Counted from the stretch's first letter, positions 15,167 through 64,000 are shown. The stretch: 64,000 nt of DNA from Verrucomicrobiia bacterium (GCA_947462875.1 CANHQJ010000012.1:48118-112117), one strand, 5' to 3'. Made by a program: numbers and translations. Notes: generated from the sequence alone by a model not told the origin.

Positions 15167-17680
15167 TTATTTTGTTTCCATCGTTTTTTGGATATCATCG
15201 CTGCGGAAAGGAACGGCGGGCAGGCCCTCGCGATTGAACAGATTTCCGTCCGGCACCTTCGCCCAGCAGTAGCGCACATGGGCGGGGTGGGGGACTTTCT
15301 CCGAGGTGACGACAACGGTATCGCCCACGATGGTGGCGGTTGCCGGAACATAGGCGCCATCAGCTCCGGCGATGGTGAAGCCCCGGAGCATCTCACCTTG
15401 GCTCATCAGTCCTGTGCCGCGATGAGAAAAGGAAACAATCGCACGGTCTTGTTCGATGCGCATTTCCTGAAACACGGGACCGGAAAATTCCACGGCCTCA
15501 CCGTAGCTCAGCGCGCGTGCCGCCAGGGCGAGGCGTGAACCCACGGGTTGCTTGCGTGTCGGGTGAATGTTATCGGCGTCGCCCACATCGGTGGTGACCA
15601 CCATCGCCGTTCGCGGAGTATCGCGCCAGATGTGATACTGCGCCTCGCGGATGGACGGGTGTATGCTTTGATGGGGGGCGAGTTGTATGAACAGGAATGG
15701 CATGTCTTTGCCCCACACCGCGCGCCAGTCCGCGATCATCGCGGGGAGGAGTTTTTCATAAGCGGCCGCCTGGCCGGCATTCGATTCGCCTTGATACCAG
15801 ATCGCACCGCGGATCGGGAACGGTTGCAGCGGGGCGATCATGCCGTTGTGCAGGGCTCCGGGGCAGTCGTGGCCGCGTGTTTTCGGCATGGTCGGCGCTG
15901 CGGGGATGGGCTTGCCTTCCGCCTTGGCTTGCGCGACGGCTTTCGGATGAACGTGGTCGCGTTGGTGTTGATAGGCGCGATAGGTGGCTACGATGTCCGC
16001 CAATGTTTCGTCCGAAACATTGTTCCATTTGGCCAGCAATGTCGCGGCTTCGTTCATCCGGGAGAGTGTTTCCGTGCGCATCCAGGTTTCGATGCGCGTG
16101 CCGCCGACAGAGCTCACCAGCAACCCGATCGGCACGCCGGTTTGTTTCTGCAAATCCTTGGCAAAATAAAAGGACACCGCCGAGCATGCGCCCGCAGTGG
16201 TGGGACTGACGGGCTTCCATTGACCGTCCAGTGTGGTCAGTGGCTCCTTGCTGAACTGGTCTTTCACCGAGAAAAACCGGATCATGGGATGCCGGGCCGC
16301 GGCGATTTCCTGGCTCGCGTTTTCCACGCTTGCCATCGTGAAATGCATGTTCGACTGCCCCGAACAAAGCCAGACATCGCCGACCAGGACATCGCCAAAC
16401 TCGATGCTTTGCCCGCCACACGCGATCTTCAGCGTTTGCGGTGTTTCACTGGCGGCCAGTGGTTCCAGTTTCACTTGCCAATGGCCTTTGTTGTCGGATG
16501 TGGTCGACTGGTGCTGTTTGTCGAAGCTGACGCGCACTTCCGAGTTCGGCGCGCACCAGCCCCAGACCGGCACGGCTTGTTCGCGCTGCAGCACCATGTG
16601 GTCGCTGAAACAGGCGGGCAAGCGCAAGGTGCTTTGCAAGGACCACTCGGACTGCCATGAAATGGTCGCTTGGTTGTTCTGGTCAAATTCCAATGGCAGC
16701 CAGATGTAGCCCGATTGCACCGGATCCTGCGGCAGGTTGATATCGAACATGGCGATCCACCGGTCCTCCTGCCCGGGCATGGGGAAAACAAATGTGCTTT
16801 GTCCGCCGAAGGTTTTTTCCGCACTGAGTTTGTTGTGAGGGTTGATGCCGCGACAGGGATTGCCGAGAGAAGTGAAGGGCCCGGTCAATTGATCGGCCAC
16901 GTAAAAGCGGGCCGGATTCGGGGCCCATCCCGTGCTGGCAGAGCCTAGCAGATAATACTTACCCTTGCGCTTGAACAGCACAGGGGCCTCGGTGGCGTTT
17001 TGGACACCTTGCATCGGCACGTAGTTTCCTACCGGTCGCAAGCCGTCGTCTGTCATCTTGCCACAGACCAGCGGTTTATCGGTGCGTGTGCCATCGGGTT
17101 TGCGAACCGCGATGTGATGGACGGATCCGTCTTCTTCCTGATAGATGGCAAAGTCTCCGGATCCCGTGGTGCTTCCGCCGCCCAAAAACTTGCCTTGATA
17201 TTGATACGGTCCGGTGGGTTTTTCCGCCGTGGCAACGCCGATATAGGCAAAGTCCTTGCCACTTTTGCCGCCCTGCGCTTTGGGGGGATAAAGTTTGAAA
17301 TAGAGAATGAATCGTTTTGTCCCCGCGTGGTGGATCACTTTGGGTCGATCGAGAATGTAGGCGTCCCTGAGTTCCGCCGGCATTTCCGGTGAGCGCGCAT
17401 CCAGCACCAGACCGGCGTTTTTCCAACTCAGCAGATCCTTGCTGGTATAGCAACTCACTCCCGCCTCATTGCTCTCTTCCTCGGTCTTGCCGGGGATTTT
17501 TTGCGCACCGAACCAATAATACGTATCCCCGTGATGGAGCACGCAGAAGCCGTGTGCGTTGATCCGGTTGCCCTCGGTATCGAGCCATGGCTGACCCGGG
17601 CGGAACGAGGGAGATGCTGCGTCCGCTGACGCAGTGAATGAAGCGAGTAGCAGTGCGATTGATAGCAGAATGTGTTTCAT
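15167..17680 (-). CDS. Bifunctional GH43-like beta-propeller glycosidase fused to SASA/DUF303 O-acetylesterase
   Basis: 837 aa with signal peptide. The N-terminal half (HGDTYYWFG... TEAPVLFKRKGKYYLLGSASTGW) resembles a GH43-like 5-bladed propeller. The C-terminal half has the esterase sandwich plus catalytic motif (VPVWGWCAPNSEVRVSF...VLVGDVWLCSGQSNMHF) and a C-terminal sandwich (VRYCWAKVPDGNLFNREGLPAVPFRSD). Confidence 0.65.
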   Translation of the reverse strand: MKHILLSIALLLASFTASADAASPSFRPGQPWLDTEGNRINAHGFCVLHHGDTYYWFGAQKIPGKTEEESNEAGVSCYTSKDLLSWKNAGLVLDARSPEMPAELRDAYILDRPKVIHHAGTKRFILYFKLYPPKAQGGKSGKDFAYIGVATAEKPTGPYQYQGKFLGGGSTTGSGDFAIYQEEDGSVHHIAVRKPDGTRTDKPLVCGKMTDDGLRPVGNYVPMQGVQNATEAPVLFKRKGKYYLLGSASTGWAPNPARFYVADQLTGPFTSLGNPCRGINPHNKLSAEKTFGGQSTFVFPMPGQEDRWIAMFDINLPQDPVQSGYIWLPLEFDQNNQATISWQSEWSLQSTLRLPACFSDHMVLQREQAVPVWGWCAPNSEVRVSFDKQHQSTTSDNKGHWQVKLEPLAASETPQTLKIACGGQSIEFGDVLVGDVWLCSGQSNMHFTMASVENASQEIAAARHPMIRFFSVKDQFSKEPLTTLDGQWKPVSPTTAGACSAVSFYFAKDLQKQTGVPIGLLVSSVGGTRIETWMRTETLSRMNEAATLLAKWNNVSDETLADIVATYRAYQHQRDHVHPKAVAQAKAEGKPIPAAPTMPKTRGHDCPGALHNGMIAPLQPFPIRGAIWYQGESNAGQAAAYEKLLPAMIADWRAVWGKDMPFLFIQLAPHQSIHPSIREAQYHIWRDTPRTAMVVTTDVGDADNIHPTRKQPVGSRLALAARALSYGEAVEFSGPVFQEMRIEQDRAIVSFSHRGTGLMSQGEMLRGFTIAGADGAYVPATATIVGDTVVVTSEKVPHPAHVRYCWAKVPDGNLFNREGLPAVPFRSDDIQKTMETK

Positions 17681-55043: not shown

Positions 55044-56738
55044 TCAGCGTTTCTTTTTCGACCCGGGCTTCGGATAGATGTAGGTGCGCTCGGCTTCCTT
55101 CTCCCACAATTCGCGCAGTTCGCGAGCTTTCTCCGGATTTTTTTGACTGAGATTGGTGCTTTCGCCTCGGTCCTCCTCGATCGCGTAGAGTTCCCAGGGC
55201 TGCGTCTCTCCGGCGCGCACCAGTTTCCATGGTCCTTTCCGGATCGCGGCTCTGCCGTAGTGTTCGAAGAGCAAGGCCCGTTCTTCTTTGCGATCGGCGG
55301 CGAAACCGCCGGCAAGGCTGCGTCCCTCCAGCGGTAGTATCTCGTGATCGGCGAAGCGTGCGGGATACTTCGCACCTGACAGTTCCACGCAGGTGGCCAT
55401 GATGTCGATCAGGTGCCCCGGTTCCTGGCGCAGTTGGTTGCGGGCCGCGATCCCCTTGGGCCAGTGGGCGATCAGCGGGGTGGAGATCCCGCCTTCGTGA
55501 TTGCTGCTCTTGTATTCGCGGAAGGGGGTGTTGGAGACATTCGCCCAGTCGCGACCATAGGCAATGTAGGTGTCCGCCGGGCCGGGCATTTCCCCTGGAC
55601 CGGTGCGCACCGGTCGGCCTTCGCGCGACCGATCAGGGACCATCTTGGTCTGTAGCTCATCTTTACCCATCGGTACGATGTCATCGGGAAGCGGTCTTTT
55701 GGGAGCCTTGCGGCCATTGGCCTCGGCGCATCCGCCGTTGTCCTGCATGTAGAGGATCAGCGTGTTCTCGAACTGACCGGTGGCTTTCAGGCTATCGACG
55801 ATTCTCCCGATGCCCTGGTCCATCGAATCGACCATCGCCGCATACACCTCCATGCACCGCAACTCCCACGCCTTGGCGGACTCGTCCACACTTTTCCATT
55901 TCGTCGCGCCGGGGCTGAGTTCCCAGTCGCCGATGACGCCGAGCTCCTTCATCTTCTTGTAGCGCGCCTCGCGGATCGCCTCGTATCCGGCATCATAACG
56001 CCCCTTGTATTTGGCGATGTCCTGATCGAGGGCGTGCATCGGCCAGTGGGCGGCGGTGTAGGCGACATAGAGGAAAAAAGGTTGGTCCGCGTGGTTCGCT
56101 GCGTGCTCACGGATGTAACGCGATGCGTAGTCGCTGATCGCATGGGTGTAGTAGTATTGCTCGGGTTGGTATTCCTTGTCGTTGACGGGAGTGAGCGCCT
56201 CGTTGCCGCGGGTGAGGGTCCAGGGATCGAAAAAACTTCCCGCGCCGATGATGGTGCCGTAGAAGCGGTCGAAGCCGCGTTGCAAGGGCCAGTTTTTCTT
56301 GTCCCCATCGGGACGGAGCTGCGCGGTCACGTGCCACTTGCCTGTCATGTAAGTCCGGTAGCCCGCCGGCTTGAGTGCCTCGGCGATGGTCACCGCGTTG
56401 CGTGACAGGTCACCCCGGTAGCCACGCTGGCCGCCGTCACCGGTCATCTCACCGATGCCCGCCTGGTGGGCATAGAGACCGGTCAGGAGTGAGGCACGGG
56501 TGGGGCAGCAACGTCCGGTGTTGTAGAACCGGGTGTAGCGCAGACCGTTGGCCGCAAGCCGATCGAGATTCGGTGTCGCGATCTCTCCGCCGTAACAGCC
56601 GAGGTCCGAGTAACCCATGTCATCGGACAAGACGACGATGATGTTAGGTTTCGGCGCAGGCTGGGCACAGAGCGTGGGAGGAGCCAAGGCCATCAGGAGC
56701 GTTAGGTTGAGAATGCTTACCAAGCCGGGAACTTTCAT
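55044..56738 (-). CDS. Sulfatase (S1 family)
   Basis: Start chosen at MKVPGLVSILNLTLLMALA (56738), preceded by GGGGGAG. The ORF is open to 56822. Motifs PNIIVVLSDDMGYSD and CCPTRASLLTG. Confidence 0.85.
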   Translation of the reverse strand: MKVPGLVSILNLTLLMALAPPTLCAQPAPKPNIIVVLSDDMGYSDLGCYGGEIATPNLDRLAANGLRYTRFYNTGRCCPTRASLLTGLYAHQAGIGEMTGDGGQRGYRGDLSRNAVTIAEALKPAGYRTYMTGKWHVTAQLRPDGDKKNWPLQRGFDRFYGTIIGAGSFFDPWTLTRGNEALTPVNDKEYQPEQYYYTHAISDYASRYIREHAANHADQPFFLYVAYTAAHWPMHALDQDIAKYKGRYDAGYEAIREARYKKMKELGVIGDWELSPGATKWKSVDESAKAWELRCMEVYAAMVDSMDQGIGRIVDSLKATGQFENTLILYMQDNGGCAEANGRKAPKRPLPDDIVPMGKDELQTKMVPDRSREGRPVRTGPGEMPGPADTYIAYGRDWANVSNTPFREYKSSNHEGGISTPLIAHWPKGIAARNQLRQEPGHLIDIMATCVELSGAKYPARFADHEILPLEGRSLAGGFAADRKEERALLFEHYGRAAIRKGPWKLVRAGETQPWELYAIEEDRGESTNLSQKNPEKARELRELWEKEAERTYIYPKPGSKKKR

Positions 56739-56759
56739 GCTCCCCCGAATACCGCCTCC

Positions 56760-56812
56760 CTGCGCCATTTTTTTCAAATGTCGCCATGAGCGAAGGAATT
56801 GTTCAAACCCAT
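56760..56812. repeat. Copy A of an ~53-bp dispersed direct repeat
   Basis: CTGCGCCATTTTTTTCAAATGTCGCCATGAGCGAAGGAATTGTTCAAACCCAT. It is about 83% identical to copy B at 59816-59868, in the same orientation. Confidence 0.7.
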
Positions 56813-56959
56813 TCGTCACCAATTTTTTCGCCTTCTTGTCATCATCTCTGCGTCATTTTTGGTGTTGTAATTTCAATAAGCCAATCAGGCGTTGATCCGC
56901 TGGGGCATTTATGGAATCATCAAAAAAATTAACTCTGAAATTCCCAACACGAAAACACC

Positions 56960-57640
56960 ATGAGAATCCTGCTCATTGAAGATTCGAAACGACTGCGCGA
57001 GACAGTCGCCAAGGTCATGAGGCGATCGGGTTACAAGGTGGACGAGAGCGGGGACGGCGAGGAAGGGCTGTGGAAGGCACGGGAGAATGCCTATGATGCC
57101 ATCATTCTCGACATCATGCTGCCCGGCCGTGACGGTTTGGATGTGCTCGAAACGTTGCGCCGGGAAAAGTGCGACGTGCCGGTCCTGATGTTGACAGCCC
57201 GAGACACCATTCAGGATCGGGTGCGGGGTCTGCGACAGGGTGCCGACGATTACCTCTGTAAGCCCTTCGCTCTGGACGAGCTATTGGCCCGCATCGAGGT
57301 GCTGTGTCGGCGGGGCTACGGGCAGCGCGACCCGTTGATCCGAGTGGGGGATTTAGAAATCGATACGGTAGCCCGGAGGGCGTGCCGTGCCGGACATGAA
57401 CTCGATCTCACGGCACGCGAGCTCGCCCTGCTCGAACTGCTAGCCCTCAACCCGGGCGCGTGCCTGTCCCGTACGCGCATCGAGGAGCACATTTACGACG
57501 AATTGGTCTCCCCCATGAGCAATGTGGTCGATTCGACGGTTTACGCGCTGCGCAAAAAACTGTGCGTCGCGAAGGATATGCCGCCGCTCATTCATACCCG
57601 CCGCAAGCAGGGTTACATCCTGGAGGAACGAAGCTCATGA
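56960..57640 (+). CDS. OmpR-family response regulator (receiver plus winged-helix)
   Basis: MRILLIEDSKRL...DAIILDIMLPGRDGLDVLETLR...LMLTARD; the phospho-acceptor is the Asp in ILDIM. The C-terminal winged helix reads ...LTARELALLELLALNPG. Confidence 0.85.
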   Translation: MRILLIEDSKRLRETVAKVMRRSGYKVDESGDGEEGLWKARENAYDAIILDIMLPGRDGLDVLETLRREKCDVPVLMLTARDTIQDRVRGLRQGADDYLCKPFALDELLARIEVLCRRGYGQRDPLIRVGDLEIDTVARRACRAGHELDLTARELALLELLALNPGACLSRTRIEEHIYDELVSPMSNVVDSTVYALRKKLCVAKDMPPLIHTRRKQGYILEERSS

Positions 57641-59040
57641 AGTCGATCCGCCGTCGCTTGATCCTGTGGCTGCTGCCAGGCTTTGCCGTGCTTTGGCTGG
57701 CGGGGGGGACTACTGTCTTTTTTCTGTTCCGCGCATCGGAATTCGCGCGGATCGATACCCGGATGGAAGACCTCGAACGCTCGGTAAGCTTGATGATGGC
57801 CGCAGAAGCCGCGAAGGAAAATCCCGGCTTGGGCCAAGGCCCCAAGCGCAGACGGGTTCGCCTGCCGGAATTCGATGAACCGGGGAGCGGCTATTATTAT
57901 GCGATCTTCACGGAGGCGGGTGAGTTGGTGCAGCAATCTCCATCGCTCGATGGGCGAAGCCTGCCTGCGGCGGAGCCTGGCGTGGGAGCATCGAACGTCC
58001 GCCTCAAGGATGGAGAAGACGTGCGGCTGAGAGCAACGCCGCTGAATGATGGCACCCGCCGCGGAGTTGGTCGCGCGCGCGCGGGAGCGCAAATGCAATC
58101 CGGCACCGCTGTGGTGGCCATCAGTTTGGAGGAAGCGCAACAATCGCTTGCCGGGCTGGTCATTGGTATGGTCGTCACGGGAGGAATCGGTGCGGCGGCC
58201 TGTGCCCTGCTGATCGGGTTGGCCCTGCGCGATGGATTGAAACCGCTCAGGGTGCTGGGCAGCGAAGTAGCACAAATCGCCCCGCAATCCCTCTCCACTC
58301 GATTCAGCACCGGCGGTCTTCCGCGCGAGATCGGGCCGGTGGTCGGTCTTCTCAACCAACTGCTAGACCGGTTTGAGGAGGGATTTCACCGCGAGCGGCA
58401 ATTCAGTGCCGACTTGGCGCACGAGCTGCGCACACCGCTCGCCGAATCGCGCAGCCTGATCGAGATGGGATTGCGCTATCCGGATGAGATCAACGAGCAT
58501 CAGCAGCGGGAGATCCTGCTAGCATCCGGGAGGATGGAGCGGATCGTCGATGCCATGCTTCAGTTGGCACGCTGCGAAGCCACCAAGGTGGAGAGCGACG
58601 AAGTGATCGGGCTGCGGCAACTGGTGGAAACGTGCTGGAAACCATGCGGTGCGGTGGCGGGAGAGCGCGGGATCCATTTGCAGATCGATCTAACGCCTGA
58701 TGGATCGGTCCGCGGCAGTGCGGATCTCTGGTCGTTGCTGGTTCGCAATCTTTTGTCGAATACCGCCGTCTACGCGCCGGAGAGAACAACCGTGTTCGTT
58801 TCAAGAAACAACGATGCGCTCCTCCAGATCGCCAATCAGGCACCCGACCTTCGGCAGGAGGACATAGAGCGGATGTTCGACCGATTTTGGCGGGCCGATC
58901 GCGTCCGTTCCGGTGATGAGCATAGCGGTCTAGGACTCTCCATCGCCCGGGCCTGCGCGGAAGCGATGGGCTTGTCGCTCACGGCTTCGCTCCATGAGAG
59001 TGAAGGATTGCGTTTGCTTTCGTTTTACATCAGGGCGTGA
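57637..59040 (+). CDS. Sensor histidine kinase (two TM helices, periplasmic sensor domain, HisKA plus HATPase_c)
   Basis: Its ATG overlaps the response-regulator stop (ATGA at 57637-57640). It begins MKSIRRRLILWLLPGFAVLWLAGGTTVFFLF. H-box LAHELRTPL, N-box LLSNTAVYAP, G-boxes DRFWRAD and GLGLSIA. Confidence 0.85.
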   Translation: MKSIRRRLILWLLPGFAVLWLAGGTTVFFLFRASEFARIDTRMEDLERSVSLMMAAEAAKENPGLGQGPKRRRVRLPEFDEPGSGYYYAIFTEAGELVQQSPSLDGRSLPAAEPGVGASNVRLKDGEDVRLRATPLNDGTRRGVGRARAGAQMQSGTAVVAISLEEAQQSLAGLVIGMVVTGGIGAAACALLIGLALRDGLKPLRVLGSEVAQIAPQSLSTRFSTGGLPREIGPVVGLLNQLLDRFEEGFHRERQFSADLAHELRTPLAESRSLIEMGLRYPDEINEHQQREILLASGRMERIVDAMLQLARCEATKVESDEVIGLRQLVETCWKPCGAVAGERGIHLQIDLTPDGSVRGSADLWSLLVRNLLSNTAVYAPERTTVFVSRNNDALLQIANQAPDLRQEDIERMFDRFWRADRVRSGDEHSGLGLSIARACAEAMGLSLTASLHESEGLRLLSFYIRA

Positions 59041-59155
59041 CGGTTGCCCACAGCTGATGGAGGTGAAAAATTCCCGCCACATCACCTTGCCATCATCTAG
59101 GAATGCTATCCTGAGGTCGCCAATCAGGCAAAACAACCACACAAAAGAAAACAGT

Positions 59156-59488
59156 ATGAAAATCATTACCATTGGAATCGTTGCCATGTTGGGCCTCACA
59201 GGGGCTTTGCATGCGCAGAAAGGAGAACGGAAAGGCGGTGACGGCCAATTGTTCGACAAGCTGGACACCGACGGTGACGGCATCGTCAGCAAGCAGGAAT
59301 GGGAGGCCAACTGGTCTGGCAAAGGCCATCACAATCGCGGGCAGGCAGGAGCGAAGGGGCGAAAAGGCCAAGGCCCTCGTGGTGCCCAAGGGGATGCTCG
59401 TCCGGGTGGTCCTGGCAAAGGCAAAGGCCGCCCGGGAGCCGGTGGCGCAGGCCGTGGTGCTCGCGGCGGCAAAGGTGGGGCGCAATGA
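59156..59488 (+). CDS. Small secreted EF-hand calcium-binding protein with Gly/Arg/Lys-rich tail
   Basis: Signal peptide MKIITIGIVAMLGLTGALHA. Canonical EF-hand loop DKLDTDGDGIVSKQE. The C-terminal ~55 aa are low-complexity (GQAGAKGRKGQGPRGAQGDARPGGPGKGKGRPGAGGAGRGARGGKGG). Confidence 0.6.
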   Translation: MKIITIGIVAMLGLTGALHAQKGERKGGDGQLFDKLDTDGDGIVSKQEWEANWSGKGHHNRGQAGAKGRKGQGPRGAQGDARPGGPGKGKGRPGAGGAGRGARGGKGGAQ

Positions 59489-59531
59489 TCGAACAAGTGC
59501 GATTCTCCTTATTCGGCGAAACGTGAAAACC

Positions 59532-59570
59532 AAGACGTCGCTCCCCGTGGAGCGGCGTCTTATTTGTTTG
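59532..59570 (+). terminator. Rho-independent terminator after the EF-hand gene
   Basis: Stem AAGACGTCGCTCC / GGAGCGGCGTCTT (one G-U wobble) with loop CCGTG, followed by ATTTGTTTG. Confidence 0.6.
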
Positions 59571-59815
59571 GCGTTTGGGTCGAAAGGACGGGTTCACCGC
59601 ACGAAAGCTCACGTAAGACTGAAACGGTCTCGCTCGCTTGATTCGCCACGGATGACTGCGTTCAACTTCCTGCGCAGTACCTATCATTTGGATAGGGAGG
59701 TGGTTTACGGAGTTTATCCCTCATAGTTGCATGGGATGTCTTGCCATTCGTAGCTTGCGCAGAAAGCGAAGAATGGCGGAGAGGGTGGGATTGCCGCTGG
59801 CCATGCCAGTATGCG

Positions 59816-59868
59816 CTGCGCGGTTTTTTTCAAATTTCGCTACAAGCGAAGGACGCGTTCAAACCCAT
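59816..59868. repeat. Copy B of the ~53-bp dispersed direct repeat
   Basis: CTGCGCGGTTTTTTTCAAATTTCGCTACAAGCGAAGGACGCGTTCAAACCCAT. Conserved blocks are TTTTTTTCAAAT, the inverted repeat TCGC..GCGAAGGA, and GTTCAAACCCAT. Confidence 0.7.
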
Positions 59869-60591
59869 GGCCCTTTGGGCAGGGTTCTCGTCCCCCTGAA
59901 ACGCCAACACCCCAACCCAGACGAGCTGGGCTGGGGTGTTGGCGGATCGGTGAGGCGGTGGGTTGATAGTTCTTTTTTCTTTGTATTCATGTGCATTGGT
60001 GCGTTAGTTGTTTTGTATAGGGACGAAAGGCGAATAGCCATTGACCGTCATTTTGTGTGAAATCCGTGTGCAATCGAATGGATTCTGTCGCGAATTTGGC
60101 AGGACTGAAATCGCAACAGAACCGCTCCCGAACTGGATTTCCTGTTACTTGGTCGGTCTATTCGCTCTTCATTCATGCATTACCGATCTGCCAGATTGGT
60201 GAGTTGGATCAAGGTCTTTTTTCGTCGATCGCACTCACGCATTTCCCTTCTCATGCATACTTCAGCTACTTTCATCCCCGTATCGGTTTCTTTGAGGATC
60301 GCCACAATTTGGCTCTCTGTGTATTGACTCTTTTTCATCGTTTCGTTTGCTTTCTAGACACCAAAACCTCTCATTTCAATCTGTTTCGCCTGCGGGGACT
60401 CTTACAGTTCCCGGCTGATCACTAGTATTGCTAAATCGGATTAAGGCAAATCAACTTCTTGACAACTTAACAAGTACAGAATGAAGTCGCTCCTCCCTAT
60501 GACATCATAACTTAACTTGGTGAAATTCGGTCAAACTATTGGGTCCCGTTCAATTTAAGCAAAAAAGCAAATTTCTATAAAAATATCTCAG

Positions 60592-63129
60592 ATGAAACAC
60601 AAATCTCTTCTCGCACTGTCCTTGCAAGTCGTCCTGAATGCGAGTCCTGCGCTAGCGGGCACATACACTGTATCTACGGTTGCTGACAATTACTCGACTC
60701 CGGTGGCCGGAAGCTTGCGGGATGCCATCAATCAGGCAAACGCCGATCCCTCAGTAGCCACCATCGTCTTCAACATCCCCGGCGGCGGGACCATCAACCT
60801 CGCAGCCAACGCGGGTGGCGACCGAATGTTGCCCATCTTCACCAACCCCAACGGCATCAGTATTGACGGCTCCAATGGCGGGCAGGGCGCGATCACCATT
60901 GACGGCGGTTCGACCTCGGCCAGTACTGGCGACCGCCTCTTCTTCATTGGCGTCCAGGCGAACACACCGGGGGCAGCGGGCGGAAATCAGCCCAGCACCG
61001 CAGCGACCAGCTTTAGCGTCGCCAACCTCACATTGCAAAATGGCAATGCCCGAGGTGGCGCAGGCGGTGGCAGCGGCACCAGCAATGGGGGCGGAGGGGC
61101 CGGGCTAGGCGGGGCGATCTTTCTCAACGCCGGCAACCTCACTCTCAGCGGCGTCACCTTCAGTAATAACATCGCGGTCGGCGGCGCGGGATCCGTAACT
61201 GGTTCTACTACTCGGTCTGGCGGCGGTGGTGGAATGGGAGGCAATGGGGCCGCCGCAGCCGCAAATATGAACGGCGGTGGTGGGGGGCTTGGTCTCGCCG
61301 CATCCGGAGGTGGTAATGGTCAAGCCGGTAGAGGCGGTAATTTCATTGGTGCCGCTGCTGGCGGGTTCGGCGGCTTCGGTTCATCCGCAGGCGGTGCCGG
61401 CGGTGCCAGCGGTGGCGGTGGTGGCGGCGGCGTTAGCGGTGCCGGAGGGAGTGCTGGTGGTGGTGGCGGCGTTGCTGGCGGCAATGGCGGCAATGGCGGC
61501 GGCAACGGTGGTGTGGGCGGTTTCGGCGGCGGTGGCGGCGGTGGTGGCGACGGCGGCGCGGGCGGTTTCGGCGGCGGCGGTGGCGGCGGTTTTGGCGAAG
61601 GCGGCGCGGGCGGTTTCGGCGGCGGCGGCGGCGGCGGTGCGAGCGGCGGCGCAGGTGGTTTCGGCGGCGGTGCCAGAAACGGAGCCCAAGGCGGCGGCGG
61701 GCTGGCGGCAGGCGGGGCGATTTTTGTCCGCCAAGGTGGCACGGTCACGATCACGGATGGTGGAATCTCTGGAAACAACGTTATTGCAGGGACCGGAGGT
61801 GCAGCCAGCGCCATCGGCCAAGCCCTCTTCTTGGCAGGCAGTGCGACTTATCATGTCAGCACGAATAACACTGTGACCATCACCAATACTCTCGGCGGCG
61901 GAGACAACGCCCTGATCACCGGCGGCTTTACCAAGACAGGCTCCGGCACGCTGGTGCTTTCCGGTAGCAATAGTTACACGGGCGGTACTATCGTCAGCGA
62001 CGGCACGTTCGTAGCCAATAATTCCAGTGGCAGCGCCACCGGGACAGGCACTGTCACCGTCAACAGCGGCGGCACGCTCGGGGGCACGGGCACGATCAGC
62101 GGTGCCATTGCCGTCAACAGCGGAGCGACCCTAGCTCCCGGCGCTAGCCCCGGCACTCTCAACTCCGGGGCTGTGAGCTTTTCCAGCGGCTCGACCTTCA
62201 GCGTCGAAATCACCGGCGCGACGGTGGGTAGCCAATACGACCAGCTCAACGTCACGGGCACCGTCGAGCTCAACAATGCAACGCTCTCCCTCAGCGGGGC
62301 TTACGTACCCGCCAGCGGCGACAGCTTCGTCATCATCAATAACGATGGCAGCGATGCCATCACCAGCACCTTCAACGGCCTGCCCGAAGGCAGCATTGTC
62401 ACGATCAACGGCGTGAATAGAAAACTCACCTACATCGGCGGTACCGGTAACGACGTTGTTTTGTTGTCCTCACCTGAAATCGGTGTGCAACAACCCGTCG
62501 GCACGGACCTCGTGAATGGGACAAGCAGCATTGATTTTGGCACGGTGAGTGTTAGCAGCAGCGTGGTCAAGACTTTCACCATCACGAACAGTGGCACCGC
62601 CAATTTGACCAATCTGGTCATCACCAATAACGGGACGAATTCCGGCGACTTCATCGTGGGTGCTTTGGGTAGCACGACGGTGAATCCGGGCAGCAATACG
62701 ACGTTCACCGTGACCTTCACGCCGACGGGAGTCGTCAACCGGAGCGCGGCGATCAGCATCACTAGCAATATGACCGGAGCGAACAATCCATTCACCGTTA
62801 ACCTAAGTGGACAAGGGTATTACACCCAGGCGCAGTTTGACGCGAATCGGGCGGCAGGCATCAGTGATGTGACGAGCAATCCAAATGCTTACGATCTCTA
62901 CACTACCTCCCAAATCCAAGCACTAAACGTAGGCACACCCTTGATTCAACGGAACTCAACAACAGGCTTGTTTACACTAACCATAGCCGTGCAGAAATCC
63001 ACGAATCTCGTGGACTTCATTCACTTGCCGATGACCGCACCGCAGACGACTATCAATGCAGAGGGCAAGCTTGAGTTTCGATTCGGCTCGCCAGACAACG
63101 CTGCGTTCTTCCGCTTGGAATCGAAATGA
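60592..63129 (+). CDS. Giant secreted adhesin-like protein with Gly-repeat region, autotransporter-associated beta-strand repeats and an ASH/DUF1573-like beta-sandwich
   Basis: Signal peptide MKHKSLLALSLQVVLNASPALA. A ~150-aa tract is almost pure Gly (GGFGGGGGGG periodic). ITGGFTKTGSGTLVLSGSNSYTGGTIVSDGTFVANNSSGSATGTGTVTVNSGGTLGGTGTISGAIAVNSGATLAPG is the autotransporter-associated beta-strand repeat. FGTVSVSSSVVKTFTITNSGTANL...FTVTFTPTGVVNRSAAISITSN looks ASH/choice-of-anchor-like. Confidence 0.65.
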   Translation: MKHKSLLALSLQVVLNASPALAGTYTVSTVADNYSTPVAGSLRDAINQANADPSVATIVFNIPGGGTINLAANAGGDRMLPIFTNPNGISIDGSNGGQGAITIDGGSTSASTGDRLFFIGVQANTPGAAGGNQPSTAATSFSVANLTLQNGNARGGAGGGSGTSNGGGGAGLGGAIFLNAGNLTLSGVTFSNNIAVGGAGSVTGSTTRSGGGGGMGGNGAAAAANMNGGGGGLGLAASGGGNGQAGRGGNFIGAAAGGFGGFGSSAGGAGGASGGGGGGGVSGAGGSAGGGGGVAGGNGGNGGGNGGVGGFGGGGGGGGDGGAGGFGGGGGGGFGEGGAGGFGGGGGGGASGGAGGFGGGARNGAQGGGGLAAGGAIFVRQGGTVTITDGGISGNNVIAGTGGAASAIGQALFLAGSATYHVSTNNTVTITNTLGGGDNALITGGFTKTGSGTLVLSGSNSYTGGTIVSDGTFVANNSSGSATGTGTVTVNSGGTLGGTGTISGAIAVNSGATLAPGASPGTLNSGAVSFSSGSTFSVEITGATVGSQYDQLNVTGTVELNNATLSLSGAYVPASGDSFVIINNDGSDAITSTFNGLPEGSIVTINGVNRKLTYIGGTGNDVVLLSSPEIGVQQPVGTDLVNGTSSIDFGTVSVSSSVVKTFTITNSGTANLTNLVITNNGTNSGDFIVGALGSTTVNPGSNTTFTVTFTPTGVVNRSAAISITSNMTGANNPFTVNLSGQGYYTQAQFDANRAAGISDVTSNPNAYDLYTTSQIQALNVGTPLIQRNSTTGLFTLTIAVQKSTNLVDFIHLPMTAPQTTINAEGKLEFRFGSPDNAAFFRLESK
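61540..61690 (+). repeat. In-frame ~39-nt tandem repeat (GGC-rich) encoding GGAGGFGGGGGGG units inside the adhesin-like CDS
   Basis: Near-identical units ggcggcgcgggcggtttcggcggcggtggcggcggt recur four times, within a longer GGC/GGT-rich tract (about 61290-61700). Confidence 0.6.
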
Positions 63130-63869
63130 TGATGGGAAGGTTTTCGTTAATCGAGCACAAGTCATTTCGGACGGTTTCATTTCCAACCTCGTCTTCGTGA
63201 GCGAAGACGAGGAATTTGTTGGGACGAGAGGCCGTGACTCTCCACGTAAAGCATTGGTTCCCCGCCGTTCAAGCTTTCCCTGAGACACAGTCCATTTTTA
63301 CGAGCGCCAACGGATGCGATGAGCGCGGTTGATGGGCAAGGCTATGGTGCGCTTTCGAGTAAGGGGAATGTCATGCTTTCGTAATCAACACGACCGAACC
63401 GAGAATCCCAATTGAAAATGCAGAGTTCCCGGCTGGTCGAATAGAGCGCCACGGTCGATGCGGTGATGAGTCTCCACTCTTCTTTAGCAGCGTCATAGTA
63501 GCTGAATTTGATGGGCAGACTGACTGTTTTTGCCGAACCCAGCGGATTGTGAATGTTCACTTGTCCGGGACCCACTCCAATTTTGGCACTTCCGAGTTCG
63601 ATGCCGATTTTCAGGGTCGTCATATTTAAAAACATGGTATCACCGCCTTTGAGTGCCGCGAGATCCTGTACTTTGCTTTAAAAAGCAGACCGTTCGGGTT
63701 CTTGGCGATGGGCATGAGAATGACCATGGCATCGGATACGGATTCGGGAACCGTCGCTTGTGCCAGTGTGATTTCCATCAGGCAGGTTGTGCGCTAAGGC
63801 GACTTTATTGGAATAGTGATTGCGGTCTGCTGCGGGTGTCGCGCATCGGTGGGAAGCGGTGAAAGTATC

Positions 63870-63932
63870 TGCTTACACTTTGCTTACACTAAATCGGCAC
63901 TTTTCAGGGTATTTTGGCGCACATTAGTGCGC
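63870..63932. promoter_or_regulatory. Candidate operator region: 10-bp direct repeat at 11-bp spacing plus a perfect 16-bp palindrome
   Basis: TGCTTACACT-t-TGCTTACACT at 63870-63890 (helical-turn spacing typical of response-regulator sites). GCGCAC-ATTA-GTGCGC at 63917-63932. The downstream target lies beyond the window. Confidence 0.35.
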
Positions 63933-64000
63933 TTTGGATTTTCACAGTGTTTTCGTTGAGATCGCCGCAATCCTTTAATTATCAAGGGTTTTATGGCGGA

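What the first reader, a model, noticed from the sequence alone, without database searches (positions are those of the whole stretch)
56760..59868. Fifty-three-bp direct repeats flank the two-component-system / EF-hand cassette
Two same-orientation copies of an ~53-bp element lie at 56760-56812 and 59816-59868, about 83% identical, bracketing exactly the response-regulator, histidine-kinase and EF-hand genes plus their terminator. Each copy has a T7 run, TTCAAAT, an inverted repeat TCGC(N3-5)GCGA whose loop varies while the stem is kept, AGGA, and GTTCAAACCCAT. That gives two TTCAAA half-sites about 29 nt apart. Copy A sits in the divergent promoter region between the sulfatase (start 56738) and the response regulator (start 56960). 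Possible readings: recombination or attachment-like scars of a cassette insertion; binding sites for the encoded OmpR-type regulator (autoregulation plus a second target); or a small structured RNA. On the minus strand each copy can also be read as a 12-codon ORF (MGLNNSFAHGDI / MGLNASFACSEI, stop, A7). I treat that as unproven.
Basis: seen in the sequence. Interest (0 to 1): 0.55.

Follow-up and report, generated by a model that had tools for sequence, protein, structure and literature searches.

The report
tRNA-Ser integration scars, not cassette borders
The two 53-bp repeats are real, but they are leftover junction pieces from mobile DNA that repeatedly inserted into a nearby serine-tRNA gene, not dedicated borders or regulator sites of the two-component cassette.

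Summary
The repeat is confirmed: 56760-56812 and 59816-59868 are 83% identical, with no other full copy in the window. It works on the minus strand. There each copy starts with a tRNA T-arm look-alike (ATGGGTTTGAAC), followed by a conserved hairpin (TCGCT-NNN-AGCGA).

Copy B runs on into 19 nt identical to the 3' end of a tRNA-Ser(UGA) gene. That gene begins at 63994, 4.2 kb away.

- A relative (L063) has the cassette directly next to the intact tRNA-Ser, so 59793-63993, including copy B, is an insertion at the tRNA.
- Near-identical strains differ exactly at this site, and one of them carries an integrase island there.
- Copy B belongs to a conserved non-coding unit of about 190 nt (tRNA 3' end, terminator hairpin, the element, tRNA 3' end). 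The same unit sits at tRNA-Ser genes in other Verrucomicrobiota, often beside a small GIY-YIG nuclease gene.
- Copy A is a truncated solo remnant.

The two copies are therefore equivalent far ends of two elements stacked in tandem, not the left and right ends of one cassette. The regulator-site and 12-codon-ORF readings are not supported. A better operator candidate (CTTGYCATCATCT) lies upstream of both cassette transcription units.

This is an ordinary kind of feature in an unusual, apparently undescribed form.

The parts
56760..56812 (-). Copy A (E_A). A truncated solo copy holding the T-arm-like 12-mer, the hairpin and the A-rich stretch up to GCGCAG. It lies 21 nt upstream of the sulfatase start codon.
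   Evidence: It is the second-best window hit (E=0.065) to a family HMM built without window sequences.
56813..56839 (.). Short stretch between copy A and the regulator promoter block. It resembles the last ~30-45 nt of region X, which lies upstream of the regulator in L060 and L063. Inferred to be a deletion junction.
   Evidence: Junction sequences, compared by eye. This is an inference.
56835..56890 (+). Conserved block upstream of the regulator gene (CTTGTCATCATCT..GCGTCAT..GCCAATCAGGC). Candidate promoter or operator of the cassette.
   Evidence: Conserved in L007, L010, L011, L012, L060, L062 and L063.
56960..59488 (+). Cassette genes: OmpR-type response regulator (56960-57640), histidine kinase (57637-59040) and a secreted EF-hand protein (59156-59488).
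   Evidence: Pfam hits. The cassette is conserved as a block in relatives.
59086..59129 (+). Second copy of the CTTGCCATCATCT..GCCAATCAGGC block, upstream of the EF-hand gene.
59532..59561 (+). Intrinsic terminator of the cassette.
59640..59682 (-). Degenerate third element copy (E_C) inside the old tRNA-Ser trailer. GAACGCAGTCATC is identical to the copies in L070 and L071.
   Evidence: Alignment. The HMM hit is weak (E=3.7). It is conserved in L063.
59740..59773 (-). Remnant of trailer 'L' (CCA|TTCTTCGC...GCTACGAATGGCA). In relatives this trailer leads into a small GIY-YIG gene, which is missing here.
   Evidence: Compared with L073, L077, L087 and L088. No GIY-YIG gene is found in the window.
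59774..59792 (-). att remnant: 19 nt identical to the 3' end of tRNA-Ser(UGA), covering T-loop 3' part, T-stem and acceptor strand with CCA.
   Evidence: Unique exact match in the window. It is identical to the tRNA end in L001 and L063.
59793..59815 (-). Distal part of the ~72-nt insert, joining copy B to the att remnant.
   Evidence: Module alignments.
59816..59868 (-). Copy B (E_B). The centre of a complete ~190-nt unit.
   Evidence: A family HMM built without window sequences hits 59809-59877(-) at E=1e-12.
59889..59957 (-). Hairpin H, a 32-nt-arm stem-loop. In relatives it directly follows tRNA-Ser and looks like its terminator (stem, then TTTCAGGG).
   Evidence: Repeat I1. It is conserved, with changes on both arms, in L060, L087 and L088.
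59940..59965 (-). Degenerate copy of the tRNA 3' end (att''). It overlaps the foot of H and marks the proximal end of the mini-unit.
   Evidence: Alignment A6.
59966..60230 (.). Region X. In L060, L062 and L063 the homologous sequence lies directly upstream of the regulator promoter.
   Evidence: BLAST (69% over 352 nt, 88.6% over 35 nt). Junction sequences.
59793..63993 (.). Segment of about 4.2 kb inserted between the old tRNA-Ser 3' end and the present tRNA-Ser gene. It holds copy B, H, X, an 845-aa Ig-like/Gly-rich protein gene and two small ORFs. It has no integrase.
   Evidence: Empty site in L063. Pfam results.
63994..64000 (-). First 7 nt (TGGCGGA) of the tRNA-Ser(UGA) gene, which is cut by the window end.
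   Evidence: ARAGORN finds the tRNA on L001 at 16358-16445(-), which equals window 63994-64081.

Best explanation
The repeats are junction pieces left by serial site-specific insertion at a tRNA-Ser(UGA) gene. On the minus strand, the element is the 5' half of a tRNA T-arm look-alike (ATGGGTTTGAAC) followed by a conserved ~70-nt insert that starts with the hairpin TCGCT-NNN-AGCGA. In a complete copy the insert ends in the real 3' part of the tRNA (AATCCCACCCTCTCCGCCA). Together with terminator hairpin H, this forms a non-coding unit of about 190 nt that sits at the far end of inserted DNA.

Order on the window minus strand: tRNA-Ser, then a 4.2-kb insertion ending in X-att''-H-copy B-att, then the old tRNA trailer (L, E_C), then the EF-hand/kinase/regulator cassette, then copy A, then the sulfatase.

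Copy B is therefore the distal end of the newer element. Copy A is the truncated distal end of the older segment that carries the cassette. It has lost H, most of X and its att.

Shown: the 19-nt tRNA-end duplication, the empty site, the strain polymorphism at that site, and the conserved unit at other tRNA-Ser genes.

Inferred: that a tyrosine integrase acting in or near the T-loop made the junctions; that the hairpin and T-arm mimic are recombinase-recognition features; and that copy A arose by deletion. Neither copy is inferred to regulate the cassette. Because of where it sits, copy A must now lie in the sulfatase promoter or 5' leader.
For: 1. The 19 nt at 59774-59792 equal the tRNA-Ser(UGA) 3' end and are unique in the window.
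2. In L063 (kinase 91% identical) the same trailer runs straight into an intact tRNA-Ser T-arm. MAFFT splits that T-arm around the insert in the window and in L060.
3. L004 is identical to the window up to 59780 and then diverges inside the att. L002 diverges after 29 nt of the tRNA end and has a Phage_integrase gene there. Contigs L003, L059 and L063 end at the att, and L005 ends inside copy B.
4. The unit [tRNA end]-H-element-[tRNA end] aligns across the window, L060 (two copies), L087 (two copies) and L088. In L088 the downstream copy matches the local tRNA-Ser(GCT) end, compared by eye from the sequence.
5. A family HMM built without window sequences hits copy B at E=1e-12.
6. In L060 the cassette also has X-att-H-element-att on its regulator side, in the same orientation as copy A.
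7. The sixth hairpin pair covaries (GC 4, AU 3, UA 2). The two wobble cases pair only on the tRNA-direction strand (alignment A4).
8. Integration into tRNA T-loops and 3' ends that leaves 15-220-bp direct repeats is established, as is tandem accretion with decayed att-flanked remnants (CIMEs) (10.1101/2020.11.02.365908, PMC1762012, PMC5704250).
Against: - The 4.2-kb insertion has no integrase.
- The integrase islands seen in L002 and L087 do not carry the element next to their att, so the recombinase responsible is unidentified.
- An insert between the two halves of a T-arm is not what a simple attR looks like.
- Copy A has no recognisable att beside it and only a borderline independent HMM score (E=0.065). 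Its history is inferred from 83% identity to copy B and from flanking similarity to X.
- The genome-wide copy number in the source genome is unknown. The genome scan used a window-specific pattern, and the metagenome collection missed known copies such as those in L060.
Confidence: 0.6

Rival explanations
1. The element is the conserved end, or the disrupted target site, of a small selfish element whose autonomous form encodes only an 80-aa GIY-YIG nuclease. This element would target the T-loop or 3' flank of tRNA genes. The ~190-nt H-element unit would be its non-autonomous derivative, and the window copies would be relics of it.
For: A GIY-YIG gene (PF01541) lies directly downstream of tRNA-Ser genes with four different anticodons: TGA (L060), CGA (L073), GGA (L077) and GCT (L088). 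In five of six independent loci it is followed within ~100 nt by the element or its 5' part. The GIY-YIG unit (tRNA end-L-GIY-YIG-element) and the mini-unit (tRNA end-H-element) have the same boundaries. The same insert type sits in the T-loop of a tRNA-Lys copy in L070 and in tandem in L071. The window retains trailer L and E_C, arranged as if the GIY-YIG gene had been deleted.
Against: There is no GIY-YIG gene in the window. Homing by a nuclease does not normally duplicate the target, yet the tRNA end is duplicated here. An 80-aa catalytic domain with no DNA-binding domain is not a known homing enzyme. Tyrosine integrases are present at the same sites. The link rests on only about six independent loci.
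Confidence: 0.15
2. The element is a structured RNA made from the minus strand. It could be part of the tRNA-Ser 3' trailer, processed into a small RNA or acting in cis. Copy A would then have been co-opted as the 5' leader of the sulfatase mRNA.
For: One hairpin shows covariation and strand-specific wobble pairs. The orientation matches tRNA transcription. Copy A lies 21-73 nt upstream of the sulfatase start codon, so it must be in the promoter or the leader. In the minimum-free-energy folds of copy B and L060 E1, the split T-stem (UGGG/CCCA) closes around the insert.
Against: There is no Rfam match, even at permissive thresholds. Folding energies are no better than shuffled sequence (z from -1.4 to +1.0). 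Apart from the first hairpin, the insert differs in length and sequence between copies. Hairpin H, which looks like a terminator, lies between the tRNA and the element. No expression data exist.
Confidence: 0.1
3. The two copies are binding sites for the cassette's OmpR-type response regulator, giving autoregulation plus a second target.
For: Copy A lies in the divergent promoter region. Both window copies have two TTCAAA motifs 33 bp apart, about three helical turns.
Against: Orthologous regulators in L007, L010, L011, L012 and L062 have no element upstream. In L060 and L063 region X lies in between. The left TTCAAAT is absent from the family members in L060, L064, L070 and L087. OmpR/PhoB-type sites are direct repeats about 10-11 bp apart, by general knowledge of the family. 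A different motif, CTTGYCATCATCT plus GCCAATCAGGC, is conserved upstream of both the regulator and the EF-hand gene in all relatives. Its two exact copies in the window are those two sites (0.10 expected by chance). Copy B belongs to a later insertion.
Confidence: 0.04
4. Each copy encodes a 12-residue peptide on the minus strand.
For: Both window copies have ATG, 11 further codons and TGA in frame.
Against: Differences between the copies are not concentrated at third codon positions (AAT/GCG, CAT/TGT, GGC/AGC). Family members in L060, L064, L070 and L087 lack the ATG and the stop. The 'start codon' is part of the T-arm look-alike.
Confidence: 0.01

Closest known systems
tRNA-gene-targeted genomic islands and prophages, with tandem accretion and decayed att-flanked remnants (CIMEs, e.g. 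ICESt1-related elements)
   Same: A direct repeat of the tRNA 3' end brackets the inserted DNA. Several elements are stacked at one tRNA gene. Some have no integrase and are bounded by att sites. Occupancy differs between strains, and an integrase-bearing island sits at the same tRNA in another strain (PMC5704250; 10.1101/2020.11.02.365908).
   Different: The conserved ~190-nt non-coding unit is far smaller than described CIMEs. Its distal tRNA fragment is split in the T-loop by a conserved hairpin-bearing insert. The same unit recurs at tRNA-Ser genes of different anticodons and at tRNA-Lys. No cognate integrase has been identified.
T-loop attB sites of tyrosine integrases (e.g. mycobacteriophage Ms6 in tRNA-Ala)
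   Same: The break in identity between the att remnant and the tRNA falls in the T-loop (GGGATT|CGAACCC versus GGGATT|GCCGCT). The T-stem halves could serve as the symmetric core (PMC1762012).
   Different: No experiment places the crossover here. In L002 the duplicated segment is 29 nt and includes the whole T-arm, so more than one recombination register is in use at this tRNA.
Free-standing GIY-YIG homing endonuclease genes in tRNA gene regions (e.g. phage T4 SegB)
   Same: In relatives, a small GIY-YIG gene sits right next to tRNA genes and the element (PMC2330249).
   Different: This protein is an 80-aa catalytic domain only, is chromosomal, and has no demonstrated cleavage activity. No such gene is present in the window.
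REP/BIME-type or MITE-type dispersed hairpin repeats
   Same: A short non-coding repeat with a conserved hairpin in intergenic DNA.
   Different: There are only two to three copies in 64 kb, all at one tRNA-linked locus. Family members found elsewhere all lie next to tRNA genes, tRNA 3'-end remnants or the GIY-YIG gene. There are no terminal inverted repeats.

Membership tests
Element integrated at a tRNA gene (genomic island / CIME) | A direct repeat of the tRNA 3' end flanks the inserted DNA | tested here: met
   59774-59792 is a 19/19 match to the tRNA-Ser(UGA) 3' end that starts at 63994, and it is unique in the window.
Element integrated at a tRNA gene (genomic island / CIME) | An unoccupied site exists in a relative | tested here: met
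   In L063 the cassette and trailer abut an intact tRNA-Ser T-arm. That contig ends 27 nt into the tRNA.
Element integrated at a tRNA gene (genomic island / CIME) | The element encodes an integrase | tested here: not met
   No integrase domain is found in 59793-63993. Integrases occur at the same tRNA in L002 and next to a tRNA-Ser remnant in L087. The fit is therefore with a decayed or non-autonomous element only.
Element integrated at a tRNA gene (genomic island / CIME) | Presence or absence varies among close strains at the att site | tested here: met
   L004 diverges at 59781 inside the att and lacks copy B. L002 diverges after 29 nt of the tRNA end.
Element integrated at a tRNA gene (genomic island / CIME) | Excision to a circle, or restoration of attB | not testable with these tools
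   Needs read-level or PCR data.
Operator of an OmpR/PhoB-type response regulator | The site is conserved upstream of the orthologous regulated genes | tested here: not met
   The element is absent upstream of the regulator in L007, L010, L011, L012 and L062. A different motif is conserved there.
Operator of an OmpR/PhoB-type response regulator | Direct-repeat half-sites about one helical turn apart | tested here: not met
   The TTCAAA motifs are 33 bp apart, and the left one is not conserved in the family.
Operator of an OmpR/PhoB-type response regulator | The regulator binds the site | not testable with these tools
   Needs EMSA or DAP-seq.
Described structured RNA family (Rfam) | A match to a covariance model | tested here: not met
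   No hit at gathering score. Only chance-level miRNA-type hits fall on hairpin H at a permissive threshold.
Structured RNA in general | Covariation that supports a conserved fold | tested here: inconclusive
   One 6-7-bp hairpin has two covarying pairs (score 0.201 against 0.091 in shuffles, 0/500). The rest of the element is not conserved in structure, and fold z-scores are near 0.
Small protein-coding ORF | The reading frame and start/stop codons are conserved in homologous copies | tested here: not met
   The ATG and the stop are absent in L060, L064, L070 and L087.
GIY-YIG homing-type mobile element | A nuclease gene lies inside or beside the repeat | tested here: not met
   tblastn finds no GIY-YIG gene in the window. 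In relatives the gene adjoins the element in five of six loci.
GIY-YIG homing-type mobile element | Site-specific cleavage of the empty target | not testable with these tools
   Needs biochemistry.
Dispersed REP/MITE repeat | Many copies at unrelated intergenic sites | tested here: inconclusive
   There are only 2-3 copies in the window and few hits in collections. However, the source genome was not scanned as a whole, and the metagenome collection is incomplete.

The most novel reading that the evidence does not exclude
The element, hairpin H, trailer L and the 80-aa GIY-YIG gene would together form an undescribed family of very small mobile units, about 190 nt non-coding and about 450-600 nt coding. 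These units would home to the T-loop or 3' end of tRNA-Ser and tRNA-Lys genes in Verrucomicrobiota, carrying a replacement tRNA end and terminator. The hairpin-bearing insert would either split and so immunise the target site, or serve as the recognition site of the mobilising enzyme.
Probability: 0.2. Interest if true: 0.7.

Novelty: new variant of a known kind. Interest (0 to 1): 0.42.

Why it matters
For this locus, the result removes a tempting but wrong reading, namely that the repeats are cassette borders or regulator sites. It also points to the likelier control sequence of the two-component system, CTTGYCATCATCT upstream of both transcription units.

It shows that the regulator/kinase/EF-hand cassette travels with tRNA-Ser-linked mobile DNA in marine Akkermansiaceae. 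That explains why relatives with 85-97% identical kinases carry it in quite different neighbourhoods.

More generally, a conserved ~190-nt non-coding unit and a tiny GIY-YIG gene recur at serine-tRNA genes of four different anticodons. If these are mobile in their own right, they would be among the smallest tRNA-targeting elements known. They would also give a handle on how tRNA integration hot spots are built and stabilised.

Tried and rejected
1. I scanned genome contigs with GAAGGANNNGTTCAAACCCAT. It returned 46 hits in unrelated phyla and none in Verrucomicrobiota, so these are chance matches. In hindsight the pattern was too specific to the window copies.
2. I scanned viral contigs with the family pattern and got no hits.
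3. The sigma-70 promoter scan found no sites in 56600-60650. I considered a Bacteroidetes-like -33/-7 promoter on the minus strand (TTTG..AnnTTTG). I dropped it because the A-rich/TTTG part is not conserved in L060, L070 or L087.
4. I considered the element being a tRNA 3'-half pseudogene as a whole. Only the 12-nt T-arm half is convincing for the Ser-type copies. In L070 the tRNA models do read the first ~20 nt of the insert as an alternative tRNA-Lys 3' end (55.6 against 74.2 bits).
5. Pairing between the tail of H and the att follows trivially from both containing the tRNA end, and it is not conserved in L088.
6. A first fuzzy-regex script timed out. One contig look-up (P0179) found nothing.
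7. Protein P0145 is listed on about 21 contigs, but these turned out to be one locus sampled many times, not a multi-copy gene.


Full report
**Observation.** The two copies are real. The repeat finder reports 56760-56812 and 59816-59868 as a two-member direct-repeat family, 53 nt and 83% identical. A 45-nt degenerate pattern built from both copies matches only these two places in the 64-kb window, with none expected from shuffles. The right-hand 12-mer GTTCAAACCCAT also occurs only there.

The genes between the copies are an OmpR-type response regulator (56960-57640), a HAMP/HisKA histidine kinase (57637-59040) and a secreted single-EF-hand protein (59156-59488). An intrinsic terminator follows at 59532-59561. 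A sulfatase gene is transcribed divergently from 56738. There is no Rfam family at gathering score and no tRNA within the window.

**Source and relatives.** The kinase is encoded on a contig of an Akkermansiaceae MAG (GCA_947464735.1; L001, where window coordinate = L001 coordinate + 47636) and on several near-identical metagenome contigs. Kinase homologues at 76-97% identity gave contigs from relatives.

The regulator-kinase-EF-hand block is conserved in all of them, but its neighbours differ from one relative to the next. BLAST shows that the shared block runs only from about window 56827-56840 to about 59561-59572. That is from just right of copy A to just past the terminator, about 250 nt short of copy B. 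So the repeats do not bracket the cassette exactly.

**What lies around copy B.**
- Immediately left of copy B, 59774-59792 reads TGGCGGAGAGGGTGGGATT. This is the reverse complement of the last 19 nt of a tRNA-Ser(UGA) gene. It is unique in the window.
- ARAGORN finds that tRNA on L001 at 16358-16445(-), which is window 63994-64081. The window's last seven bases, TGGCGGA, are the start of it.
- In L063 (kinase 91% identical) the ~200 nt after the terminator are conserved. They then run directly into TGGCGGAGAGGGTGGGATTCGAACCCAC, an intact tRNA-Ser T-arm.
- When L063, L060 and the window are aligned, MAFFT splits the L063 T-arm. GGGATT aligns with the att remnant, and CGAACCCA aligns with the right end of the element (CAAACCCA in the window), with the rest of the element in between.

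On the minus strand, copy B plus its left flank is therefore a tRNA-Ser 3' fragment interrupted in the T-loop by about 72 nt: ATGGGTTTGAAC, then the insert, then AATCCCACCCTCTCCGCCA. Relative to L063, the segment 59793-63993 is an insertion bounded by a 19-nt duplication of the tRNA end. That segment holds copy B, the long hairpin H (59889-59957; I1), region X, an 845-aa Ig-like/Gly-rich protein gene and two small ORFs.

**Strain-level variation at the same point.**
- L004 is identical to the window up to 59780, then diverges inside the att remnant and lacks copy B.
- L002 is identical to L001 through 29 nt of the tRNA end, then carries unrelated DNA with a Phage_integrase gene.
- Contigs L003, L059 and L063 stop at the att. 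L005 stops inside copy B. This is the usual behaviour of assemblies at repeats.

Integration into the T-loop or 3' end of tRNA genes, leaving direct repeats of 15-220 bp, is well established. So is tandem accretion of elements that later decay to att-flanked remnants (10.1101/2020.11.02.365908, PMC1762012, PMC5704250).

**The element belongs to a wider family.** The first genome scan used a pattern too specific to the window copies and returned only chance hits.

L060 (kinase 89% identical) has three diverged copies. Two of them sit in a larger unit: tRNA-end remnant, element, hairpin H. One of these units abuts a real tRNA-Ser(UGA).

A metagenome scan with TCGCNNNNAGCGANNNNNNNGTTCRAACCCA gave true relatives in L064, L070, L071 and L073/L075. 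A viral scan gave none.

A six-way alignment covers the window, L060 (two copies), L087 (two copies) and L088. It shows a conserved unit of about 190 nt, in this order:
- the tRNA 3' end or a remnant of it;
- hairpin H, ending TGGCGTTTCAGGG;
- GAGAACC;
- GGGTTCGAAC;
- the TCGCT-NNN-AGCGA hairpin;
- a variable stretch;
- CAATCCC...TCCGCCA.

In L088 the unit follows tRNA-Ser(GCT), and by eye the downstream tRNA-end copy matches that tRNA. In L070 the same kind of insert sits in the T-loop of one of two tandem tRNA-Lys(UUU) genes. In L071 two inserts lie in tandem between T-arm halves.

A family HMM built without any window sequence hits copy B at E=1e-12. Copy A is the second-best hit in the window at E=0.065. 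A degenerate third copy at about 59642-59668 scores E=3.7. That third copy (E_C) shares GAACGCAGTCATC with the L070 and L071 copies and is conserved in L063.

**Which strand, and is the hairpin real?** In a 13-sequence alignment the five inner pairs of the hairpin are almost invariant. The sixth pair changes on both sides: G-C in 4 sequences, A-U in 3, U-A in 2, G-U in 1. The covariation score is 0.201 against 0.091 in shuffles (0/500), and slid controls are lower.

The two wobble cases (copy A and L060 E2') pair only on the tRNA-direction strand, which is the window minus strand. This supports a conserved stem, in RNA or single-stranded DNA, or a structural palindrome.

The rest of the insert is not conserved in length or sequence. 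Whole-element folding energies are no better than shuffles. Permissive Rfam scans find nothing relevant.

**Copy A.** Copy A matches copy B only from the T-arm look-alike to GCGCAG. No tRNA-end remnant is recognisable beside it, and the sulfatase start codon is 21 nt away.

In L060, L062 and L063 the regulator promoter is preceded by region X. In L060 this is followed by a tRNA remnant, H, an element copy and att, in the same orientation as copy A. In the window, X lies beyond copy B and H (59966-60230).

The 27 nt between copy A and the promoter block resemble the last part of X (by eye). I therefore infer that copy A is the distal end of the older tRNA-linked segment that carries the cassette, and that it has lost H, the tRNA remnant and most of X by deletion. 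This step is inference, not demonstration.

**Resulting map (minus-strand order).**
1. tRNA-Ser(UGA), starting at 63994.
2. A 4.2-kb inserted segment ending in X, a degenerate tRNA end (59940-59965), H and copy B.
3. The displaced 19-nt tRNA end (59774-59792).
4. The old tRNA trailer, with L (59740-59773) and E_C.
5. The EF-hand, kinase and regulator genes.
6. Copy A.
7. The sulfatase.

The two 53-bp copies are thus equivalent ends of two stacked elements, not attL and attR of one cassette. I found no literature describing this unit, so 'apparently undescribed' rests on a limited search.

- Regulator binding. The element is absent upstream of orthologous regulators in L007, L010, L011, L012 and L062, and its left TTCAAAT is not conserved in the family. 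By contrast, CTTGYCATCATCT followed by GCCAATCAGGC is conserved upstream of both the regulator and the EF-hand gene in all relatives. The two exact copies of the first motif in the window are precisely those two sites (0.10 expected). GCCAATCAGGC occurs at those two sites plus once inside the kinase gene. That is the better operator or promoter candidate.
- 12-codon ORF. Its start and stop are missing in other family members, and the differences between copies are not codon-like.
- Promoter. No sigma-70-like site is found.

**A lead beyond the finding.** A small GIY-YIG gene (80 aa, PF01541) lies directly downstream of tRNA-Ser genes with four different anticodons: TGA in L060, CGA in L073, GGA in L077 and GCT in L088.

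The gene is preceded by a conserved trailer L that starts right after CCA (TTCTTCGC...GCTACGAATGGCA, with interleaved inverted repeats). In five of six independent loci it is followed by the element or its 5' part. The window keeps L and E_C but has no GIY-YIG gene.

The GIY-YIG unit and the non-coding H unit share the same boundaries. This raises the possibility of a very small tRNA-targeting mobile family. I rate that at about 0.2, for three reasons: nuclease homing does not explain the tRNA-end duplication, tyrosine integrases are present at the same sites, and the sample of loci is small.

**Verdict.** The repeat is confirmed. It is best explained as junction remnants of serial integration at tRNA-Ser(UGA) (confidence 0.6). 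The kind of feature is known. The conserved ~190-nt unit with a T-loop-split tRNA fragment, and its link to a GIY-YIG gene, appear to be an undescribed variant. The limits are as follows:
- the source genome could not be scanned as a whole;
- the metagenome collection missed known copies;
- the recombinase is unidentified;
- copy A's history is inferred.

Noticed in passing
window 56835-56890 and 59086-59129: CTTGYCATCATCT has only two exact copies in the window, upstream of the regulator and upstream of the EF-hand gene (0.10 expected by chance). Each is followed by GCCAATCAGGC. Both motifs are conserved in all orthologous loci. This is a likely shared promoter or operator of the cassette.
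   Followed up: partly
L060 5347-5589, L073 528-764, L077 1501-1764, L088 2501-2743, L087 3001-3243: An 80-aa GIY-YIG gene sits immediately downstream of tRNA-Ser genes of four different anticodons (TGA, CGA, GGA, GCT). It is usually followed by the element. It may be a tiny tRNA-linked selfish element.
   Followed up: partly
L077 1360-1460; L088 2363-2460; window 59740-59773 (remnant): The trailer 'L' between tRNA-Ser and the GIY-YIG gene has two interleaved inverted repeats: TTCTTCGCTTCC/GGAAGCGAAGAA and GCTACGAATGGCA/TGCCCTTCGTAGC. These could form a pseudoknot or alternative structures. One arm includes the last bases of the tRNA.
   Followed up: no
L070 2103-2270 and 2354-2427; L071 12240-12480: A tRNA-Lys(UUU) copy carries the ~85-nt hairpin-rich insert in its T-loop. 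It lies in tandem with an intact tRNA-Lys that has a duplicated upstream region. In L071 two inserts lie in tandem between T-arm halves.
   Followed up: partly
L002 16358-17505 versus L001 (window 63994 onward): A strain variant has a tyrosine-integrase island inserted after 29 nt of the tRNA-Ser 3' end. ARAGORN finds no intact tRNA in the part of L002 that was fetched.
   Followed up: partly
window 59156-59488 versus 59211-59726; window 56738 versus 56768: The public gene calls pick a 171-aa ORF that reads through the terminator, instead of the EF-hand frame with its signal peptide. They also start the sulfatase at an ATG inside copy A (574 aa), rather than at the ATG before the signal peptide (564 aa).
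   Followed up: partly
window 60592-63129: An 845-aa protein has a long Gly-rich region encoded by 9-nt-periodic GGC repeats (61380-61700, up to 77% GC) and a C-terminal ASH/DUF1573 Ig-like domain. It lies inside the tRNA-linked insertion. The region upstream of it (59950-60700) has a low GC content of 41-46%.
   Followed up: no
window 63342-63778 (minus strand): Two small overlapping ORFs (50 and 97 aa) lie next to the tRNA-Ser gene and have no Pfam match. Their position and size would fit a toxin-antitoxin or other island-maintenance pair.
   Followed up: no
L007, L010, L011, L060, L062 versus the window: The regulator-kinase-EF-hand cassette (kinase 76-89% identical) has different neighbours in every relative: sulfatases, GntR, RsmB, ThuA, beta-eliminating lyase. 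Fragments of L, H or the element lie nearby in L007 and L060.
   Followed up: partly
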